From NCBI GenBank assembly GCA_039794085.1, contig JBDIWC010000008.1, forward strand, positions 1-64,000: a stretch of DNA of 64,000 nucleotides, in the 5' to 3' direction. Positions within the stretch are counted from its first letter, which is position 1; the number at the start of each line of letters is the position of its first letter. Shown in pieces: positions 28,652 to 41,110 of the stretch. The notes under the pieces are model-generated. The model was not told the origin of the DNA and did not search any database. It worked only from the letters and a program-made list of their open reading frames with translations. A program made the position numbers and the translations under genes. The stretch comes from Gemmatimonadales bacterium. Its GTDB lineage: Bacteria; Gemmatimonadota; Gemmatimonadetes; Gemmatimonadales; GWC2-71-9.

Positions 28652-29074
28652 ATGCGATTTCACCCTCTCCTGGCCGCCTTGCTTTCCAGTACAACGATCT
28701 TCGCGTGTTCGAGCGACCCACAGGGGCCGACGCTGTCACCGCCCGATTTCTCGACGAGGCCGGTCAGGCCGGGTGTCGATCCGATCCCGGCATTGCGCGC
28801 CGCCGGCGAAGTGGGGACGATCGTCGTGGAGGGCGCCATGAATACACCGGAGCCTTGCTATGATTTCCGTGCGTCGGTGGATTCACGGGCCGGTCGAGTC
28901 TCTCTCGAAATAGTCGCCGCCCGGCAGCCGGTCTTGTGCCCCGCCGTGATCGCAGCCTTCGCCTATGAAACCATTCTCCGCCGCGTCGCTCCGGGCTCCT
29001 ACTCTGTTCTCGTCACCCACGTCCTTGACGGCCGCCGCAGCCAGGTACTGGAATCCGTGGTCACGGTCCGTTGA
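28652..29074 (+). CDS. Hypothetical lipoprotein
   Basis: GGAGG RBS, signal peptide ending IFAC; TPEPCY and CPAVI Cys pair. Confidence 0.65.
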   Translation: MRFHPLLAALLSSTTIFACSSDPQGPTLSPPDFSTRPVRPGVDPIPALRAAGEVGTIVVEGAMNTPEPCYDFRASVDSRAGRVSLEIVAARQPVLCPAVIAAFAYETILRRVAPGSYSVLVTHVLDGRRSQVLESVVTVR

Positions 29075-29168
29075 GTGTCCTCCAATACGACCGTGGCTTG
29101 CGGCGTAGGATTGAACCGCGAAGAGCGCCAAGGACGCGAAGCCTTCGAACTTCGAACTTCGAACTTCC

Positions 29169-29409
29169 CTGCTGCTGCGGACGGTGCAGCAGAACCTCCG
29201 GTTGCGGCACTGTTCGCCCCGAACGGAGGAGAGCTATCTCCAGCGGGCTCGGCGATTCATCCGGTTCCGTGGCGGTGTGATCCGCGTGACCTGGGCAGTG
29301 CCGAGAGGCGGGCGTTCCTGACCTATCTGGCGGTGGAAGGGAGGATGGCGGGGGCCACGGCGGCCCAGGCCCGTTCCGCGCTCTCGTTCCTTCCCCGGCG
29401 GACCTGCTG
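29169..29409 (+). pseudogene. intI: Integron integrase remnant A (N-terminal domain, frameshifted, joined to a probable extreme C-terminus)
   Basis: LLRTVQQNLRLRHCSPRTEESYLQRARRFIRFRG, then DPRDLGSAERRAFLTYLAVEGRMAGATAAQARSALSFL, then PADLL. Confidence 0.85.
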
Positions 29410-29430
29410 GATCTGCCGCCCGCTGCAGGC

Positions 29431-29459
29431 TTTACAGATTACGTTGTGAGCGGTACACT
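29431..29459 (+). promoter_or_regulatory. Putative cassette promoter Pc-A
   Basis: TTTACA-N17-TACACT, 40 bp upstream of the crossover. Confidence 0.55.
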
Positions 29460-29469
29460 CTTCGGGGAT

Positions 29470-29506
29470 TCGGAGGTGCAGCGGGAGACCGATAAACAGG
29501 TTCGGC
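29470..29506 (+). other. attI-like site A (crossover GTTCGGC at 29500)
   Basis: Cassette begins GTTCGGCGG and ends CCACCGAAC (8/9 complementary); no attC upstream. Confidence 0.65.
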
Positions 29507-29561
29507 GGACAAGGGAGCAGGATGGTGAAGGTGGTTGGAGGTCAGGGCAAAGGAGCAAGGC

Positions 29562-29813
29562 GTGACTCGAGTTCAGATTCGTTCGTGCGCTCACTGAGTG
29601 ACTCGCCTGCATGCCGTCCGTGTGGCGGCGCGAGTGCGGCGCGAACTCAGAGTTGAGGTAGACGTGGTCGGTGGCCCGTACGGGCAGTTCGGAGTGGAGG
29701 TCGACGGGAGGACGGTGCTTGAGGGCAGCCGGCTGGCGATGCTGGGCATCCTTCCGTCTGCGGACCAGGTGCTCGCTGCGGTACGACAGGAATTGGCGAA
29801 GGAGTCTTCGTGA
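29562..29813 (+). CDS. SelW/Rdx-family selenoprotein (CxxU), cassette-borne
   Basis: AGGAG RBS and GTG 29562; MTRVQIRSCAH-UGA(29595)-VTRLHAVRVAARVRREL...GGPYGQFGVEVDG; hairpin 29601-29635. Confidence 0.75.
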
Positions 29814-29902
29814 TCACCGACCGAGTCCATCTGTCGACTGCGTCGCCGATCCAAGGCATGGCCTTGGCAAGCCGATCCGGTTGTGCGCCTTGCATGTTCA
29901 CC

Positions 29903-30004
29903 ACCGAACAAGCCGCTTCAGCTGCCGGACGCCGCGCGACGGTTTGAGAAAGCTCGAGAGGTGGGCGCTTGCGGCGCTTGCAGCTGAACGGCAGGGCGTT
30001 CGGC
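29903..30004 (+). other. attC site
   Basis: R'' ACCGAAC; GCCGCTTCAGCTGC pairs with GCAGCTGAACGGC leaving one extrahelical base; R' GTTCGGC. Confidence 0.85.
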
Positions 30005-30029
30005 TGCGGCTCGTCGAAGGAGTTAGAGC

Positions 30030-30596
30030 ATGACTGGTATCGTCGCGTCAATCAGCGCCGAGTTCCTGCGCTACAAAGCCTACGCCGAGGGCGCCCTGGG
30101 CCAAGTGGACGACCGTGAGCTGACCACACGGGCGCCCGGTGGCGGCAACTCCATCGCGATCATCTGCTGGCACGTCGGCGGCAACCTCCGCTCGCGATTC
30201 ACGGAGTTCCTGTCCACCGATGGCGAGAAACCTTGGCGCAACCGGGAGGAGGAGTTCGGCGAGCGGTCGGTGACCCGCACGGAGGTTGTGGCGCACTGGG
30301 AGGAGGGGTGGGCGGTCCTCCTCTCGACCCTCGCGGCGCTTACGGACGCAGACCTGGCCAGGACGGTCACGATTCGCAATCAGCCGCTGCAGGTGTCCGA
30401 GGCCTTGCACCGCTCACTGGCCCATTTGGCCTATCACGTTGGTCAAGTCGTCTTGCGGGCACGGGAGCTCCGTGGGGATGCCTGGCAGTTCCTGAGCATT
30501 CCCCCGGGCCAGTCGGCCGCGTACAATGCGACGCCGGTCTTCGAGAAGGCGGCTGCCCATGCAGCCCAGTTGCGCGGGCGCGCCTCGCCTCGCTGA
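30030..30596 (+). CDS. DinB-like / DUF1572 family protein (cassette)
   Basis: NSIAIICWHVGGNLRSRFTEFLSTDGEKPWRNREEEF and HLAYHVGQ motifs; followed by R'' GCCTAAC at 30608 with the rest of the attC lost. Confidence 0.85.
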   Translation: MTGIVASISAEFLRYKAYAEGALGQVDDRELTTRAPGGGNSIAIICWHVGGNLRSRFTEFLSTDGEKPWRNREEEFGERSVTRTEVVAHWEEGWAVLLSTLAALTDADLARTVTIRNQPLQVSEALHRSLAHLAYHVGQVVLRARELRGDAWQFLSIPPGQSAAYNATPVFEKAAAHAAQLRGRASPR

Positions 30597-30772
30597 GGGT
30601 CGCAGCAGCCTAACATGCGGCCGGGGTCCGAGCCGACCTCGGCGACGCTCCGGTACCGGGGCTGCATAACATGTGCTTCCTGCTGCCGCGGGCAGAGGCG
30701 ACCTTTGAGGAGCCACCGCGGCTCCTCCCGGTGCCTCGCCGACCTCTCGCCGTGCGGGCGATGGCGGCACGC

Positions 30773-31171
30773 TCACCGGAGTGAGTCGAGATACCGGGCG
30801 GGAGTCAGCACCCGCACACCGAGAACCTCCCGGCCCAGGAACGGTCCGAAGTCCCGCAGGTCCCCCGTGATCAGGTGGGTGGCGCTCGCGGCGACCGCCC
30901 CCGCCAGAATCGGCCAGTCCTTTTCCCGGAGCTCAATGGTCTTTCGAAGCGCCGAGTCCAGGGTCAGGGCCCGCTTCACCGTCATGGCCTTGAGGAGACC
31001 GTCGAGTCGCGCGAGCTGGTCCGCCGTGGTGAGGTTGCGTCGAGCCTCTGCCACCGCGTAGTCCGACGTGAGCAAGGTGACCCCGGGAAGATCCCAGAGC
31101 CGCCGGACGCCGGCATCCGGACGCCAGGCAGCAGAGAACAGGACGTTGGCGTCCAGAAACAGCCGATCCAA
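30773..31171 (-). CDS. PIN-domain (VapC-like) toxin
   Basis: LFLDANVLFSA, EARRNL, KDWPILAGA and LITGD motifs. Confidence 0.88.
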   Translation of the reverse strand: MDRLFLDANVLFSAAWRPDAGVRRLWDLPGVTLLTSDYAVAEARRNLTTADQLARLDGLLKAMTVKRALTLDSALRKTIELREKDWPILAGAVAASATHLITGDLRDFGPFLGREVLGVRVLTPARYLDSLR

Positions 31172-31174
31172 GGG

Positions 31175-31474
31175 TCAGGCGTTCTCGGGACGTTCATGGG
31201 GAATGGCGTCGGGGTCGAGGCCCAGCGCCCGAACTTCGGCCACGGCGCGAGCATAGTCCCCGGCGTCAACGGCGTTGGAGAGGAGAAATTCCGCCTTCCG
31301 CTCGGGACCGTATATCTCCAGTGCGACCGTCATCGCGGGCCGCAGGAGAATGCCCTCCGGGGTCTCCTCGGCGATGATCTCGGATCCCTCTTCAATCCCA
31401 AAGAGCCGCCGAAGCTCGGCCGGAATGACCAGGGTGCCGCGCTTTCCGACGCGTCCATGTTCTCTGACTGGCAT
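31175..31474 (-). CDS. AbrB/MazE/SpoVT-family antitoxin
   Basis: VGKRGTLVIPAELRRLFGIEEG...EGILLRP. Confidence 0.9.
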   Translation of the reverse strand: MPVREHGRVGKRGTLVIPAELRRLFGIEEGSEIIAEETPEGILLRPAMTVALEIYGPERKAEFLLSNAVDAGDYARAVAEVRALGLDPDAIPHERPENA

Positions 31475-31510: not shown

Positions 31511-31613
31511 TCGATGTGGTCAAGGCCTCAGTGGGCACCCTCCACCTCGTCGGTGGAACCGTCCGGTGTCCACGCTGTTCAGGTGGACTCGCGGACATCG
31601 CGAGAGTTCAAGT

Positions 31614-31996
<383 letters not shown>

Positions 31997-32008
<12 letters not shown>

Positions 32009-32083
32009 GTTGCGGATCGTACATTCTCTCACGACTGGGCTGTCGGGGGGCACGTTCCCCTGCAGCTCCAATACTTGTTAGGC
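31997..32083 (+). promoter_or_regulatory. Pc-like promoter plus attI-like site B (crossover GTTAGGC at 32077)
   Basis: TTGCGG-N17-TACATT; GCAGCTCCAATACTTGTTAGG shared with copies C and D. Confidence 0.75.
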
Positions 32084-32101
32084 ATCATACCGAGGTAGCG
32101 T

Positions 32102-32870: not shown

Positions 32871-32904
32871 AGCGCCACAGCAACCGACAGTGTGGGCGAG
32901 GGCA

Positions 32905-33966
32905 ATGAAGACGATCCTCGATATCGTGCAGGAGTTCCGGGAGTCTGACCCGCCGCTGACCTATTTGGGCCAGGACGAGTCAGTGGCCTACGGCAAGTTC
33001 CTTGAGTTCGAGGTGCTGGACTGGAACGGAACGACGCGGATCGTCCCGAGCGAGGCCCTGAATCTCCCAGGGCGCCCTGGCAACCGCTCCTTCATGTACA
33101 GAGGCCAAACGACTCGTTACCCGACTTGTCAGGCATCCCTGCTTCGAGGTGCACCGGACGACGAGTGGCAGGTCAAGGCGCTTTTGACCCTTGAGCGTTT
33201 CCGTGTGGCGGAACTTGAGCTTGTTCTTCGCGAACACCCCTTCAAGGCGGTAGTGGACAAGCGCGGATTCCACGTCGACTACCACGGTCTCGCTCAGCAC
33301 TACGGCATCCCCACGTCATTGTTGGACCTGACTTCGAACGTGGAAGTTGCGGCCTTCTTCGCCGTCGCGAGGTGGGATCGCGAGGCGGGGTCCTTCCGTC
33401 CGATGGAGAGCGGAACCGGTGTCATGTATCGCTTCGACTGGGCTGCGTTCGGCCCGGAGTACGCGAAGTTCTTCGAGCCAGTCGGGTTCGGACCAGGACT
33501 GAGACCCGCCCGCCAGCACGCATGGACGTTTCGGCTGCGGCACGGCGTCGACTTTCAGAATGTCCCCCACGTGTCGGCGTTCGAATTCAGCCATTCCAAG
33601 GCAGCGTCTCTCGAGATGTTCGAGAGGTTCGACGGCGGCGCATGGCTGTACCCGCCGAATTGTCTGGCCTCGCTCGTCGAGAAGCTTCGGGACTTGCCAT
33701 TCGTGACGATGCACGCGATCCGACACGCCGCGAAGCAGGACGGCCAGAGGTCGGAAGACATAGAGACGGGCGCGGAAAGAGCGGCCCACTTCCTCAACGC
33801 CAAGCTGGGCCTGGACATCGTGGACGGGTACGAGCTTCAACCCGAGGAGGAAGATCTTGCGGTCGCCCAGCAGCAAGCATCCGCGCTGGACGAGTCGCTT
33901 GGAACGTTACGCTTCGGGTGGCGGCTTGTTCGGACGGCGGGCAGCGACGACGAGCCGGCGCGGTGA
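32905..33966 (+). CDS. FRG-domain protein (cassette)
   Basis: MYRGQ...LAQHYGIPTSLLDLTSNVEVAAFFA FRG signature. Confidence 0.9.
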   Translation: MKTILDIVQEFRESDPPLTYLGQDESVAYGKFLEFEVLDWNGTTRIVPSEALNLPGRPGNRSFMYRGQTTRYPTCQASLLRGAPDDEWQVKALLTLERFRVAELELVLREHPFKAVVDKRGFHVDYHGLAQHYGIPTSLLDLTSNVEVAAFFAVARWDREAGSFRPMESGTGVMYRFDWAAFGPEYAKFFEPVGFGPGLRPARQHAWTFRLRHGVDFQNVPHVSAFEFSHSKAASLEMFERFDGGAWLYPPNCLASLVEKLRDLPFVTMHAIRHAAKQDGQRSEDIETGAERAAHFLNAKLGLDIVDGYELQPEEEDLAVAQQQASALDESLGTLRFGWRLVRTAGSDDEPAR

Positions 33967-35775: not shown

Positions 35776-35906
35776 CAGAGGGTGACAGTCTGGCAGCCGG
35801 GAGGCGCTCCTCTTCCGGCGTCGCGGCCGTGCCCACATGTTGATTGGTGGATGGCGCGGCCGCTCAGTTCCCAGACGGCTGCCGCTGAAACCCAAAGTCG
35901 TTAGCA
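35770..35906 (+). other. attC site (long, partly degenerate)
   Basis: R'' ACCTAGC (variant); GGCAGCCG/CGGCTGCC and GCGGCCG arms; R' GTTAGCA at 35900. Confidence 0.65.
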
Positions 35907-36340
35907 GCCCGGAGTGCCAGCGCGGGGCAGCATCGAAGCCTGGGGATCGCCGGTCAGGTGATCCCGGATCATCCGCCGCAACAGCTTTCCTGAGGGTCCC
36001 CGAGGCAGCATCGGCGCAAAGAGAACCCGGCGCGGAACCTTGTAGGGCGCGAGACGCCCCCGGCAGTGGGCAATAAGGGACTCGGCTCCGGCCTCCACGC
36101 CGGGACCAAGGACCACAACCGCCACCACCTCCTCATCGAGCCGGTGATCGGGCACGCCCACCACGGCCACATCGGCCACGGCGGGATGGCCCAGCAGCGC
36201 CTCCTCCACCTCCCGCGGCGACACATTGAATCCGCCATGGAGGATGAGATCCTTCTTCCGGTCCACGATGAAATAGTCCCCGTCCTCATCCCGCGTCGCG
36301 ATGTCCCCGGTCCGGAGCCATCCATCATGAAGCGCCTCGG
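35901..36340 (-). pseudogene. Diverged duplicate of the 3' 440 bp of the acyl-CoA ligase gene
   Basis: Colinear with 39536-39975, no indels, scattered substitutions. Confidence 0.92.
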
Positions 36341-36690
36341 ATGTTCGTGCGTTTCTGGGATGGTTGGCGGAGCAGCGCCGGGTGGCGGCCTCGATTCAGA
36401 ACCAGGCTGGGGGTATAGCGGAGCTCCGAACGAAGTATCCGGCGGCGGGCCGGTCGTGGTCCGGGCAGTGGCTCTTTCCGGCGAGAAACGACGTCGCGTC
36501 AATCCTTCGCCACCCACCTTCTCGAACGAGGCTACGATATCCGGACGATCCAGGCACTGCTGGGTTATCGGGATCTGTCCAGCACGATGATCTACACTCA
36601 CGTCCTGAACCGGGGAGGCCAAGGAGTCCGGAGTCCGGTGGACGACCTGGCGGAGGGGTCCGGTCCGGCCGTCTTGCGGAACCAGGCTGC
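36340..36690 (+). pseudogene. intI: Integron integrase remnant C (internally deleted)
   Basis: DVRAFLGWLAEQRRVAASIQNQA / [20 protein letters not shown] / [49 protein letters not shown]. Confidence 0.9.
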
Positions 36691-36761
36691 GGACCGTACA
36701 ATCTCTCACGAATGGGCTGTTCGAGGGCATGTTCCCCCGGCAGCTCCAATACTTGTTAGGC
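36674..36761 (+). promoter_or_regulatory. Pc-like promoter plus attI-like site C (crossover GTTAGGC at 36755)
   Basis: TTGCGG-N17-TACAAT; invariant 21-mer ending in the crossover core. Confidence 0.75.
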
Positions 36762-37418: not shown

Positions 37419-37536
37419 CCCTATGTCGCAGTAGCCGACAGCGGCGGCTAGAACCTCAATGAACCAGACCACCGGTTCAACGATCCGCCTGTGCACGCGT
37501 TAGCGGGCGCCTTCTTGCTCACCTAACCACTGTTTG

Positions 37537-37679
37537 GGACGATCCTGGAATTCCTGGGTCATCGGGATGTGTCCACGACGATGATCTACCCGCACGTCCT
37601 GAACCGGGGAGGCCGAGGGGTCCGGAGTCCGGTGGACAACCTGGCGGAGGGGTCCGGCTCGGCCGTCTTGCGGAATTAG
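37537..37679 (+). pseudogene. intI: Integron integrase remnant D (last ~45 codons)
   Basis: [50 protein letters not shown]. Confidence 0.9.
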
Positions 37680-37755
37680 GCTGCGGACCGTACAATCTCT
37701 CACAAATGGGCTGTTCGAAGGGCATGTTCCCCTGCAGCTCCAATACTTGTTAGGT
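37668..37755 (+). promoter_or_regulatory. Pc-like promoter plus attI-like site D (crossover GTTAGGT at 37749)
   Basis: TTGCGG-N17-TACAAT; invariant 21-mer ending in the crossover core. Confidence 0.75.
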
Positions 37756-37797: not shown

Positions 37798-38796
37798 ATG
37801 AAGGTATTCATCAGCTGGAGTGGTGAGCGGAGCCACCTTCTTGCGCAGGCGCTGCACGGCTGGCTGCCCCTCGTCTTGCACTATGCCAAGCCTTGGCTGT
37901 CCGAGGCGGACGTCTCGGCGGGCGACCGATGGGCCCAGGCCGTGGCGAAGGAGCTTGAGTCCTCGAATTTCGGCATCATCTGTGTGACCCCGGAGAATCT
38001 CGGCTCTCCATGGGTTCTCTTTGAGGCCGGAGCCCTTGCGAAGTCTATGCAAGGCGCCAAAGTCATCCCGCTGCTCTTCAACTTGGAGTTCAGCGATATC
38101 AGCGGCCCGTTAGCCCAGTTTCAGGCCAAGAAGGTCGAGCGAGGTGGTTTGGCTGAGGTCATCAACTCCCTCAACCAATCAGCGGAACAAGGCGTGCCTG
38201 AGGATCGGGCGAAGCAGCTCTTCGGTGCATTGTGGCCAGAGCTTGAGAAGCAACTGGAATCGATCCCGGACGAGGCGCCTACCGAGAAGCACATGAGGCC
38301 GCAGCACGAGATCATGGAAGAGCTTGTGACCGGTGTCCGAGGACTCGACGTGCGATTTCGAGACCTCGAAGCCTCCGTTTCAGAGCCGAGCCTCCGGTCG
38401 CGTCGCCGCCGATTCCGCCACTTCCATCCAATGATGTTTGACGAAATGGCGATGATGGTCTCCGAGGAAGGGGACGACCCCATCTCGCTTCTCATGTTTG
38501 GTGGACTCCTCCGAGACGATTTCCCTTGGCTGTACGAGATTATCGTTGAGGCCTACCGTGAGGTCCGAGATGGGGACGAGAAGGCGGCACAGAAGGCAAT
38601 CGACCGCCTTCGTCGCGTCATGAAGGCCGTTGGCCGCGGTCAGTTTATGGAGGAGTTCGCCGGGTCGAAGGAAGGACACATGATGATGATGGAGATGCCA
38701 ATGATGCTGGACCACTTTCTACATCGCTTCGAGTCTCGCCGGCTCAAAGGTAAGCCCGACACGGACGCGGGCGCGGCGGATGATTCCAAGGAGTAA
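37798..38796 (+). CDS. TIR-domain protein (cassette)
   Basis: MKVFISWSG...GDRW...FGIICVTPENLGSPWVLFEAGAL, with the catalytic-position Glu. Confidence 0.92.
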   Translation: MKVFISWSGERSHLLAQALHGWLPLVLHYAKPWLSEADVSAGDRWAQAVAKELESSNFGIICVTPENLGSPWVLFEAGALAKSMQGAKVIPLLFNLEFSDISGPLAQFQAKKVERGGLAEVINSLNQSAEQGVPEDRAKQLFGALWPELEKQLESIPDEAPTEKHMRPQHEIMEELVTGVRGLDVRFRDLEASVSEPSLRSRRRRFRHFHPMMFDEMAMMVSEEGDDPISLLMFGGLLRDDFPWLYEIIVEAYREVRDGDEKAAQKAIDRLRRVMKAVGRGQFMEEFAGSKEGHMMMMEMPMMLDHFLHRFESRRLKGKPDTDAGAADDSKE

Positions 38797-39436: not shown

Positions 39437-39541
39437 TCCTAACAGGCGTTGATGCTGACCAACGCGGGTCTGTCGGAAGCGGTGGCTTGCGTTGCCGCAT
39501 TTTGTTGATAAGCGTTGGCAGCATAACACTATTCGTTAGCA
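39437..39541 (+). other. attC site (terminal)
   Basis: R'' TCCTAAC; TTGATGCTGACCAACGC pairs with GCGTTGGCAGCATAA; R' GTTAGCA overlaps the fadD stop. Confidence 0.85.
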
Positions 39542-41110
39542 GCCCGGAGTGCCGGCGCGGGGCAGCATCGAAGCCTGGGGGTCGCCGGCCAGTTGATCCC
39601 TGATCATCCGCCGCCTCAGCTTTCCCGAGGGACCCCGCGGTAGTACCGACACAAACAGAACCCGGCGCGGAACCTTGTAGGGCGCGAGACGACCCCGGCA
39701 GTGGGCAATTAAGGACTCGGCTCCGACTTCCACCCCGGGACAAAGGACCACGACCGCCACCACCTCCTCGTCGAGCCGGTGATCGGGCACACCCACCACG
39801 GCCGCATCGGCCACGGCGGGATGCGCGAGCAACACTTCCTCCACCTCCCGCGGCGACACGTTGAATCCGCCGTGGAGGATGAGATCCTTCTTCCGGTCCA
39901 CGATGAAGTAGTCCCCGTCCTCATCCCGTGTCGCGATGTCCCCGGTGCGGAGCCATCCATCATGAAGCGCCTCGGCCGTGGCCTGGAGCTGGTTCCAGTA
40001 TCCCTTCATGAGCAGAGGTCCGCGGATTTCGATCTCCCCCCGCACTCCACACTCGCCGAGCACCTGTCCCCCGTCATCCACCAACCGGAACTCCACGCCG
40101 TCGAGCGGGATCCCGATGCTCCCCGCCTTGCGCGGCCGACCGATCCGGTTCTGCGACGCCACCGGTGACGTTTCGCTCAGGCCGTACCCCTCCAGCACGG
40201 CCACTCCGAAGCAAGCCTCGAAGGCGCGCATGACCTCCGCCGGCATCGGGGCCGCCCCCGAGATACACTGCCGAAGGGAGACGGGTACCGGAAGCCTAAG
40301 TTCCTCCACATAGCGGTACAGCGAGAGGTACATGACCGGCACGGCGGCGAGGAACGTGACCGCGTGACGATGTATCGCCTCCATCGCCGCGGCCGGAGTG
40401 AAGCGCGGCAGGAGCACGGAGGTGCCCCCCGCCAGGAGAACCGCATGCTGGATGACCGTGTGTCCAAAGCTGTGGAAGAGCGGGAGCACGCCGAGTGCCA
40501 CCGTGGCCGGGCCATCCGGCAGGAAACCCGCTGCCACGGCACGCGCATTCCAGAGGAGGCTCCCGTGGGAGAGTTCCACTCCCTTGGGGCGCCCGGTGGT
40601 ACCGGAGGTGTAGAGAATGAGCGCGGTGTCCTCCGGGCCCGCGTCGTGTCCCGTCACCACAGGTTCAGCGGCACAGGCCTCATCCCAGCGAGTCACACCT
40701 GGATCAGGACCCGAGGGGACGGCTCCCACCGCGATCACGGGCACCGCCACTCCCATCCGATCAAGAGCGCCACGCGCCGCTCCGAGAGACTCGACCGACG
40801 CGACGACCAAACGCACTCCCGCGTCGGAAAACTGCCACCCCAGCTCGTCGGCCGTGAGCTGCGGGTTGAGAGGGACGAGTATGCACCCCGCCTCGTGTCC
40901 GGCGAAACAGGCCACCGTGAACTCAGCACAGTTGGGAAGAAGAATCGCGAGTCGATCCCCGGGGTGCAGCCCGATCTGACGAAGATGGGCCGCGAGACCC
41001 ACCGCCGTTTCGTGAAGCCGCCGGGCGGTCCAAATCTCGTTCCGGACGATGAGGGCAGGATGGTCGGGGGACGTGCGAACCCGATCCCGGAGGATGGAGG
41101 CGAGGGTCAT
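39536..41110 (-). CDS. Long-chain-fatty-acid--CoA ligase (FadD-like)
   Basis: YTSGTTGRPKG, EGYGLSE, TGD, DRKKD and PSGK motifs. Confidence 0.92.
   Translation of the reverse strand: MTLASILRDRVRTSPDHPALIVRNEIWTARRLHETAVGLAAHLRQIGLHPGDRLAILLPNCAEFTVACFAGHEAGCILVPLNPQLTADELGWQFSDAGVRLVVASVESLGAARGALDRMGVAVPVIAVGAVPSGPDPGVTRWDEACAAEPVVTGHDAGPEDTALILYTSGTTGRPKGVELSHGSLLWNARAVAAGFLPDGPATVALGVLPLFHSFGHTVIQHAVLLAGGTSVLLPRFTPAAAMEAIHRHAVTFLAAVPVMYLSLYRYVEELRLPVPVSLRQCISGAAPMPAEVMRAFEACFGVAVLEGYGLSETSPVASQNRIGRPRKAGSIGIPLDGVEFRLVDDGGQVLGECGVRGEIEIRGPLLMKGYWNQLQATAEALHDGWLRTGDIATRDEDGDYFIVDRKKDLILHGGFNVSPREVEEVLLAHPAVADAAVVGVPDHRLDEEVVAVVVLCPGVEVGAESLIAHCRGRLAPYKVPRRVLFVSVLPRGPSGKLRRRMIRDQLAGDPQASMLPRAGTPGC

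What the first reader, a model, noticed from the sequence alone, without database searches (positions are those of the whole stretch)
29562..29813. Probable selenoprotein carried on an integron cassette
Seen: RBS AGGAG, GTG 29562, C-A-H-TGA in frame with the 71-aa ORF, and a GxxGxFxVxVDG motif. A hairpin begins 4 nt after the TGA (ACTCGC/GCGAGT, GCCGTC/GGCGGC, loop CGTGT starting 21 nt after the TGA with G in position 2). Established: SelW/Rdx proteins have an N-terminal CxxU/CxxC, and bacterial SECIS elements have this geometry. Inference: a mobile first-position cassette that works only in Sec-decoding hosts; gene callers would truncate it.
Basis: partly seen in the sequence, partly recalled or inferred. 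Interest (0 to 1): 0.8.

Follow-up and report, generated by a model that had tools for sequence, protein, structure and literature searches.

The report
Selenoprotein gene in an integron cassette
A small gene whose internal TGA 'stop' very likely encodes selenocysteine belongs to an offshoot of the known SelW-like redox proteins and sits as the first cassette of an integron array whose integrase is broken; relatives show that this gene type travels as a cassette and is routinely cut short by gene callers.

Summary
Confirmed. GTG29562–TGA29813 reads through to 83 aa with C9-x-x-U12. All 146 scorable homologous loci have TGA at that column, and 135 of 136 distinct ones have CxxU. The host has selA, selB, selD and tRNA-Sec. 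The predicted fold is SelW/Rdx, but this is a divergent branch: below the TIGR02174 cut-off, with a hydrophobic segment in place of the usual SK..GRFP. The gene lies in a 498-bp cassette between an attI-like site behind a promoter-like sequence and an attC. A lake contig holds the same cassette (96%) from the exact crossover point with other DNA in front, and 21 of 135 other loci have an adjacent attC. Limits: every intI copy found in this assembly is broken, most relatives are not in cassettes, and Sec insertion and function are untested. My paper searches found no selenoprotein-on-cassette report, but this scan noted such cases before on other DNA, including a SelW-like one. New variant of a known kind; interest 0.4.

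The parts
29165..29415 (+). Integron-integrase remnant: frameshifted N-terminal (SAM-like) piece running directly into the last codons of intI; the catalytic domain is missing. Same strand as the cassettes (inverted-integrase layout).
   Evidence: PF13495 29.2 bits over cut-off 27 and TIGR02249 E 0.0012 on ORF 29075-29449; 29395 onward aligns with intI 3' ends on C11 and C14; limits approximate
29431..29459 (+). Promoter-like site TTTACA-17-TACACT, predicted cassette promoter (Pc)
   Evidence: Only hit in 29000-30100, shuffle mean 0.1; lies in a block conserved behind intI 3' ends on C11 and C14. Activity not tested.
29485..29506 (+). attI-like site; predicted crossover between G29500 and T29501
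   Evidence: Homology with C11 and two C14 copies ends a few bases after GTT; the C45 and C18 copies are more degenerate. Pattern occurs 3 times in the genome, each behind an intI end, reversed control 0. Contig of run X6 matches from exactly 29500.
29501..29998 (+). The gene cassette, 498 bp, first position in the array
   Evidence: Core GTTCGGCGG against reverse complement of its own inverse core GTTCGGTGG, 8 of 9; 8 two-sided cassettes in relatives are 394-502 bp
29550..29555 (+). Ribosome-binding site AAGGAG, 6 nt before GTG
   Evidence: Sequence; RBS-like 4-mer at the same place in 112 of 136 homologues
29562..29813 (+). 83-aa SelW/Rdx-fold selenoprotein gene (C9-A-H-U12)
   Evidence: start codon 11 codons before the TGA in 127 of 136 homologues
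29595..29597 (+). In-frame TGA, predicted selenocysteine codon
   Evidence: TGA in 146 of 146 scorable loci; no other letter listed in four same-sample runs or in the 96% identical contigs of X6, X7, X8
29613..29629 (+). Predicted SECIS: 6-bp stem, 5-nt loop with G at position 2, inside codons A18-V19-R20-V21-A22-A23
   Evidence: 812 of 816 cells pair; 133 of 136 keep all six pairs against 17% under synonymous recoding
29724..29756 (+). Codons 55-65: hydrophobic segment ending in the invariant G62 and P65, in place of the basic SK..GRFP segment of canonical bacterial SelW-like proteins
   Evidence: hhalign shows a 3-residue insertion here; mean hydropathy +1.43 (135 homologues, 11 residues) against -1.35 (13 canonical proteins, 9 residues); short helix 56-59 in the model
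29903..30004 (+). attC site, 102 bp (R'' 29903-29909, R' 29998-30004)
   Evidence: L box 7 of 7 and R box 6 of 7, best combination on the + strand of the window; bottom strand folds into one long hairpin, -28.5 kcal/mol, z -1.97
30030..30596 (+). Next cassette gene, DUF1572/DinB-like; its attC looks truncated
   Evidence: PF07609 E 1.4e-53; core matches inverse core near 30605-30614 but the attC model finds no full site there

Best explanation
This is a 498-bp integron cassette, first in its array behind a broken integrase gene, carrying an 83-residue SelW/Rdx-fold protein whose codon 12 (TGA) is very likely read as selenocysteine and which likely acts as a small thiol/selenol redox protein. 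Shown here: reading frame, conserved TGA and Cys9, synonymous-site constraint on the hairpin, host selA/selB/selD/tRNA-Sec, att-site anatomy, the same cassette in another context, and the broken integrase. Predicted: the fold. Inferred steps: (1) the promoter-like site at 29431-29459 transcribes the cassette; (2) SelB with Sec-tRNA binds the hairpin at +16 to +32 and inserts Sec, whereas without selenium or Sec machinery translation would stop after 11 residues; (3) the Cys9-Sec12 pair cycles between a selenenylsulfide and the reduced form and reduces or isomerises disulfides of a partner, with the hydrophobic segment 55-65 as the likely partner- or membrane-contacting surface; (4) an IntI inserted the cassette at attI in the past, and it is now stranded unless an integrase is supplied from outside. 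It is an accessory second SelW-like protein, because the host also has a canonical one on contig C4.
For: TGA in 146 of 146 scorable loci, CxxU in 135 of 136 distinct loci. Searches of whole genomes by profile, not tied to the hairpin peptide: 9 of 401 and 7 of 401 genomes had strong hits, all with one TGA. Hairpin codons are nearly fixed: GCC 131, GTC 131, CGT/CGG 133, GTG 135, GCG 132 of 136, against 19-36% use of these codons elsewhere in the gene; C-G to T-A compensation in 3. All four bSECIS criteria quoted in PMC13188914 are met. selA, selB, selD over cut-off, selD with its own in-frame TGA, and tRNA-SeC(TCA). AlphaFold2 pLDDT 86.5; Foldseek 2fa8 E 6.7e-6, TM 0.75; VIA Z 10.8, rmsd 3.0 over 80 residues; hhalign to canonical SelW-like selenoproteins 99.1%. 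Cassette; X6 contig matches 29500-29835 with 14 other letters and 1 gap and has unrelated DNA before 29500; attC adjacent in 21 of 135 other loci, both sides in 8. Canonical paralogue at G000:C4:48219.
Against: No direct evidence of Sec insertion, of promoter activity or of any redox activity. This copy scores below the cut-offs of PF10262 (17.1 against 22.6 bits) and NF041051 (28.4 against 88) and does not hit TIGR02174. It has His at position 11 where 132 of 136 homologues have Tyr or Phe, and a long end branch (0.6), so this allele may be under relaxed selection. No intact intI was found. 114 of 135 other loci show no adjacent attC. Neighbours of relatives show no recurring partner, so the substrate step has no support from context. 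The 140-locus sample was seeded on the hairpin-coding peptide and is biased against Cys forms. The X6 evidence is one contig at depth 2.7.
Confidence: 0.85

Rival explanations
1. Real selenoprotein cassette, but the Cys-Sec pair binds or hands on a soft metal or metalloid (Hg, As, Cu) rather than exchanging disulfides with proteins.
For: No conserved redox partner among 210 neighbouring ORFs scanned; the canonical C-terminal segment is replaced; PMC13188914 notes possible metal-ligand roles for Sec in other families (passages).
Against: Fold and CxxU position match SelW/Rdx proteins; metal-related neighbours are isolated cases (one MerR, one CopD among 210).
Confidence: 0.07
2. The UGA is recoded through the same hairpin but as cysteine, by a special SelC*-type tRNA, so the product is a CxxC protein.
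For: Such tRNAs are described in PMC13582414 (passages); one full-length relative on record reads CPYC (P0031).
Against: ARAGORN finds one tRNA with TCA anticodon, called SeC, and one tRNA-Cys(GCA); selA and selD are present. The DNA behind P0031 was not seen, so its C may be a true Cys codon or a converted U.
Confidence: 0.03
3. The TGA is a true stop: the gene is a pseudogene, or the real product is the 71-aa ORF from GTG 29598 that databases list.
For: 27 of 28 database relatives begin after the TGA column; the surrounding integron platform is decayed.
Against: The 11 upstream codons, the start and the RBS are conserved; the codon after TGA is GTG in only 38 of 136 homologues and mostly not a start codon. 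The Rdx match appears only with the N-terminal piece. The TGA is kept across five phyla.
Confidence: 0.03
4. The host uses a code in which TGA is Trp or Gly throughout.
For: Database protein P0003 reads CAYW at this column.
Against: This ORF itself ends in TGA and 84 of 136 homologues use TGA as their true stop; the only TCA-anticodon tRNA is tRNA-Sec.
Confidence: 0.01

Closest known systems
Bacterial SelW-like (SELENOW-like) selenoproteins: Pfam PF10262 Rdx, NCBIfam TIGR02174 and NF041051; solved Cys homologues 2fa8, 3dex, 2ojl, 2p0g
   Same: Size about 80 aa, N-terminal CxxU, same fold, SECIS in the codons of the helix after Sec (same spacing in the host's canonical paralogue), function not established. 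Listed as a predicted CxxU family in PMC13188914 and PMC9312934.
   Different: Separate branch (profile scores 133-140 bits against at most 41 for the next tier), below TIGR02174; NYEPRA and SK..GRFP motifs replaced by V(S/T)GLHAVRVAA and a hydrophobic GGALAALGVLP-type segment; no genomic Cys form seen in 802 genomes; cassette-borne in a minority of loci.
Integrons with inverted integrase, and arrays next to intI pseudogenes (CALIN; Cury et al. 2016, PMC4889954)
   Same: intI on the same strand as the attC sites, attI-like site and promoter-like site before the first cassette, attC-bounded cassettes.
   Different: Here intI is reduced to remnants, and intI 3' ends with attI-like sites recur several times inside one array; PMC4889954 found intI pseudogenes near only 15 of 279 CALIN.
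Selenoprotein cassettes noted earlier by this scan (unchecked AI notes e1-2072813, e1-9724365, e1-4737405, e1-9904233, e1-4417566)
   Same: UGA-Sec gene with its SECIS inside an attC-bounded cassette; e1-2072813 is also SelW-like.
   Different: Other genomes and mostly other protein families; here the same cassette is seen in a second context and the share of cassette-borne copies in the branch was counted.

Membership tests
SelW-like / Rdx (PF10262, TIGR02174) | N-terminal CxxU or CxxC after the first strand | tested here: met
   C9-x-x-TGA; 135 of 136 homologues
SelW-like / Rdx (PF10262, TIGR02174) | Rdx thioredoxin-like fold | tested here: met
   Predicted model; best matches are SelW-related structures, TM 0.75-0.80, Z 10.8
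SelW-like / Rdx (PF10262) | Score over the Pfam gathering cut-off (22.6 bits) | tested here: inconclusive
   This protein 17.1 bits, not met; 5 of 7 other members of the branch pass (25.0-27.5); all 60 aligned members match at E up to 0.1; hhalign 99.1%
TIGR02174 CXXU_selWTH / NF041051 | Score over the curated cut-offs (34.2 and 88 bits) | tested here: not met
   No TIGR02174 hit for this protein; best of 60 members E 8e-4; NF041051 28.4 bits. Eight canonical controls pass both
SelW-like / Rdx | Basic C-terminal segment SK..GRFP after the last strand (as in alignment A5) | tested here: not met
   Replaced by a hydrophobic segment three residues longer
Bacterial selenoprotein gene | bSECIS: 3-9 nt loop, 4-16 bp stem, G in first two loop positions, 16-37 nt spacing, MFE at most -7.5 kcal/mol | tested here: met
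   5-nt loop, 6 bp, G at position 2, 21 nt, -8.2; 127 of 136 homologues reach -7.5 against 5% under synonymous recoding. bSECISearch itself was not available.
Bacterial selenoprotein gene | Host has selA, selB, selC, selD | tested here: met
Bacterial selenoprotein gene | Cys-containing homologues at the same column | tested here: inconclusive
   Solved Rdx proteins align Cys there; within the branch only P0031 (CPYC), DNA not seen
Bacterial selenoprotein gene | Sec detected in the protein | not testable with these tools
   Needs 75Se labelling or mass spectrometry
Integron gene cassette | attC with R''/L''/L'/R' boxes, foldable bottom strand, extrahelical base (definition recalled, not from a call) | tested here: met
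   29903-30004; L 7 of 7 with one unpaired base, R 6 of 7. The model hit is circular because the site was in the training set.
Integron gene cassette | Core at the cassette start complementary to its own inverse core | tested here: met
   8 of 9
Integron gene cassette | Same unit found in another context with the break at the GTT | tested here: met
   One contig of run X6, depth 2.7
Complete integron | Intact intI next to attI | tested here: not met
   Adjacent copy is a deletion remnant; all intI-like copies inspected are broken, intact hits on C16 and C21 read as XerD/XerC; assembly 94.7% complete
Complete integron | Recombination of this attC by an IntI | not testable with these tools
   Needs an excision or integration assay

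The most novel reading that the evidence does not exclude
A nearly Sec-only branch of SelW-like proteins with its own hydrophobic substrate surface circulates as integron cassettes among Gemmatimonadota, Acidobacteriota, Chloroflexota and other soil and sediment bacteria, entered or left arrays more than once, and stands for a hidden class of cassettes whose expression is gated by the host's genetic code and selenium supply; integrons would then be an unreported route by which selenoproteomes grow, missed because cassette catalogues cut these genes at the UGA.
Probability: 0.5. Interest if true: 0.6.

Novelty: new variant of a known kind. Interest (0 to 1): 0.4.

Why it matters
Cassette catalogues rest on standard gene calling, which cuts this gene: 27 of 28 close database proteins and 57 of the 62 best profile hits start after the Sec column, and the cut product gets no Pfam match. 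A recoding-dependent gene on a unit that moves between phyla gives a concrete route for horizontal spread of selenoproteins and a cargo whose expression would depend on host decoding and selenium. The branch also offers a small, testable protein for the open question of what bacterial SelW-like proteins act on. The protein type and the integron layout are each known, and the scan has noted the combination before, so the surprise is moderate.

Tried and rejected
Folding energy against shuffles did not single out the SECIS in longer windows (z -0.89 to +1.05). A loose genome-wide attC motif scan gave 223 mostly spurious hits and was dropped. A stricter heuristic found 9 of 13 curated sites and 15 of 485 control positions, and gave downstream attC in 14 of 122 loci (own locus included) and upstream in 16 of 119; the covariance model was used for the final count. 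The window's own model hit is circular. tblastn with an intI C-terminal piece printed no match in the 136 loci; many are short and no positive control was included, so this shows little. No homologue in 72,556 plasmids or in viral contigs. Sequence search of solved structures gave only E 0.1-0.5. The tree is a quick tree on 81 columns with 6 of 123 branches well supported; the careful search did not finish, so repeated gains are suggested (13 changes needed, at least 2 forced), not shown. Contigs of two soil RNA libraries cover 29550-29745 at 96% with the TGA kept, but they are identical to each other, contigs cannot show strand, and DNA carry-over is possible: not taken as proof of expression. 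The selA association is weak because the baseline is about 80%; the Fisher p of 0.013 mixes phyla and kin and is not relied on. Weak hits L015 and L016 were left out of the counts; the L015 place later read as a truncated homologue with CxxTGA. In alignment A6 the L014 row was mis-placed, and A6 was not used. No complex prediction was run, since no binding partner is claimed.

Full report
Observation. The window reads AAGGAG at 29550-29555, GTG at 29562 and an open frame to TGA 29811-29813 broken only by TGA 29595-29597. With TGA read as Sec the product is 83 aa with C9-A-H-U12 and the GxxGxFxVxVDG motif at 38-49. The hairpin GCCGTC-CGTGT-GGCGGC lies at 29613-29629 and folds at -8.2 kcal/mol, z -2.19. 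Longer windows fold no better than shuffles. The geometry meets the four bacterial SECIS criteria quoted in PMC13188914 (passages seen).

Homologues. A search of 251 genomes of the host's phylum gave six clear homologues besides the window, all CxxTGA, and two weak hits that I set aside. An alignment of the part after the TGA fetched 60 genome loci and the best 80 of 265 metagenome loci. Of these 147 loci, own included, one was cut before the column; 146 of 146 have TGA. After removing duplicates and one short locus, 135 of 136 have Cys three codons before, 127 have a start codon exactly 11 codons before and 112 have an RBS-like word; the codon after TGA is GTG in only 38, so the 71-aa ORF is not a conserved gene. 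That sample was seeded on the peptide encoded by the hairpin, which biases it against Cys forms. Whole-genome profile searches avoid this seed: 9 of 401 genomes in the host's phylum and 7 of 401 in the phylum of G401 had strong hits, each with one TGA. Record titles place carriers in Acidobacteriota, Gemmatimonadota, Chloroflexota, Planctomycetota and Bacillota. Loci shared between G handles of the same order and titled records point to Gemmatimonadales for the host (inference). One database protein of the branch reads CPYC (P0031); its DNA was not seen.

The hairpin is under selection beyond the protein. The codons for A-V-R-V-A are GCC in 131, GTC in 131, CGT or CGG in 133, GTG in 135 and GCG in 132 of 136, while these codons have 19-36% use elsewhere in the gene; three sequences show a C-G to T-A compensation. 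The six pairs hold in 812 of 816 cells against 270-355 when slid; 133 of 136 keep all six, against 17% under random synonymous recoding. The sequences are related, so these counts are not independent events.

Host. selA, selB and selD pass their cut-offs, selD has an in-frame TGA, and ARAGORN finds tRNA-SeC(TCA). selA was found in 9 of 9 carriers in the host's phylum and 52 of 55 carrier genomes from the other scan, against 320 of 401 and 163 of 201 in phylum samples (the two baselines include one unpublished genome each, G156 and G479). TGA is also the true stop in 84 of 136 homologues, which rules out a general code change. The host has a second, canonical SelW-like selenoprotein on C4 with a hairpin at the same spacing.

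Protein. The model (pLDDT 86.5) has strand-CxxU-helix-three strands-short helix-helix. Its best matches are SelW-related structures: 2fa8 at E 6.7e-6, TM 0.75 and Z 10.8, rmsd 3.0 over 80 residues. By sequence it is marginal: PF10262 17.1 bits against 22.6, NF041051 28.4 against 88, no TIGR02174 hit, and no Pfam hit without the N-terminal piece. Five of seven other members pass PF10262; eight canonical controls pass all three models. Profile comparison with canonical selenoproteins gives 99.1% over 75 columns. The branch is discrete (133-140 bits against at most 41) and has a hydrophobic segment at 55-65 where canonical proteins have SK..GRFP. This copy has His11, seen in 1 of 136. Databases cut the gene: 27 of 28 hits and 57 of the 62 best begin after the Sec column.

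Cassette. An attC at 29903-30004 has L boxes 7 of 7 and R boxes 6 of 7 and folds as one hairpin on the bottom strand. Upstream, 29395-29505 is homologous to the 3' ends of intI genes and their downstream DNA on contigs C11 and C14, and homology ends a few bases after GTT 29500-29502; that block holds a promoter-like TTTACA-17-TACACT. The core at 29500 matches the cassette's own inverse core in 8 of 9 bases. The unit is 29501-29998, first behind an attI-like site, with intI on the same strand, a layout described in PMC4889954 and bioRxiv 2025.02.12.637893 (passages seen). The adjacent intI is a frameshifted N-terminal piece running into the last codons, and every other intI-like copy inspected is broken; intact hits on C16 and C21 read as XerD and XerC. 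So the cassette cannot be shown to be mobile now.

It has moved. A contig of lake run X6, from another study, matches 29500-29835 with 14 other letters and one gap, keeps the TGA and hairpin, and has 24 different bases before 29500 that by eye resemble the right arm of an attC (one contig, depth 2.7). With a model built from 13 attC sites of G000, 21 of 135 other distinct loci have an attC of at least 20 bits within 200 nt upstream or 150 nt downstream (4 of 64 genome loci, 17 of 71 metagenome loci), 8 on both sides, 394-502 bp long. Many loci are short and the model is narrow, so this is likely a lower bound; still, most copies are not cassettes. On a weakly resolved tree the cassette label needs 13 changes, at least 2 forced by well-supported branches. 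Among 210 neighbouring ORFs called by a crude codon model there is no recurring partner. Four runs of the likely source sample show no variant.

Mechanism. Most likely the promoter-like site transcribes the first cassette, SelB binds the hairpin and Sec is inserted at codon 12; without Sec decoding only an 11-residue peptide would be made. The Cys9-Sec12 pair would act as a redox centre, with the hydrophobic segment as contact surface. These steps are inferred from family knowledge; no substrate is known. Rivals: metal binding (0.07), Cys recoding (0.03), pseudogene or short ORF (0.03), other code (0.01).

Known and new. SelW-like CxxU proteins are a listed family of unknown function (PMC13188914, PMC9312934, PMC1794560, passages seen). 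It works like one and shares the fold, but fails TIGR02174 and NF041051, so I file it as a divergent branch of the Rdx group. Searches for selenoprotein + integron + gene cassette (6 papers), selenocysteine + attC + cassette + in-frame UGA (27 papers, 20 listed), selenoprotein genes with mobile-element terms (2 papers) and SelW-like + integron (0 papers) showed no report of a selenoprotein cassette in the listings; passages read in PMC2709254, PMC1382264 and PMC7370490 concern other things. The library lacks most subscription papers, and I did not read supplements, where such cassettes could be listed. This scan's own unchecked notes record selenoprotein cassettes on other DNA, one of them SelW-like, and a mis-annotated soil branch of this family; none matched this sequence.

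Verdict. Observation confirmed, interpretation supported with the limits above. New variant of a known kind, interest 0.4.

Noticed in passing
window 31566-32095, 36340-36761, 37494-37754; G000:C22:55900-56900: Three further intI 3' remnants of a second sequence type, 86-90% identical to the broken intI on C22, each followed by the same attI-like end and a new cassette, lie inside this one array. G000 holds many intI remnants and no intact copy was found.
   Followed up: partly
window 35900-36266 and 39535-41110: The array ends with an attC whose R' box overlaps the stop codon of a 524-aa minus-strand gene that looks like an acyl-CoA ligase (read by eye, not scanned), and the 3' end of that gene is duplicated at 35900-36266 behind another attC right arm; suggests insertion at a secondary site followed by duplication.
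   Followed up: no
window 32890-33966 and 37798-38796: Cassettes with an FRG domain and a TIR domain, each followed by an attC; candidates for anti-phage defence.
   Followed up: no
window 30773-31474, minus strand: PIN-domain toxin and AbrB/MazE-type antitoxin pair inside the array, opposite to the cassettes.
   Followed up: no
window 29143-29170: Short tandem run of the heptamer CTTCGAA at the start of the intI remnant; the same run occurs on more than 25 other contigs of G000.
   Followed up: no
G000:C4:48219-48425 (L228): Canonical SelW-like selenoprotein gene (CxxU-NYEPRA) with its own SECIS-like hairpin.
   Followed up: partly
L205-L227: Other divergent CxxU Rdx branches in the phylum of G401, some also below TIGR02174, for example L206 with its own hydrophobic insertion.
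   Followed up: partly
L031 and L041: One Chloroflexia genome carries two copies of this selenoprotein cassette about 8.5 kb apart in a long attC array.
   Followed up: partly
P0003, P0033, P0046, P0106: Database relatives with Trp or Arg at the Sec column, one base from TGA; may be inactivated alleles, errors or translations under another code.
   Followed up: no
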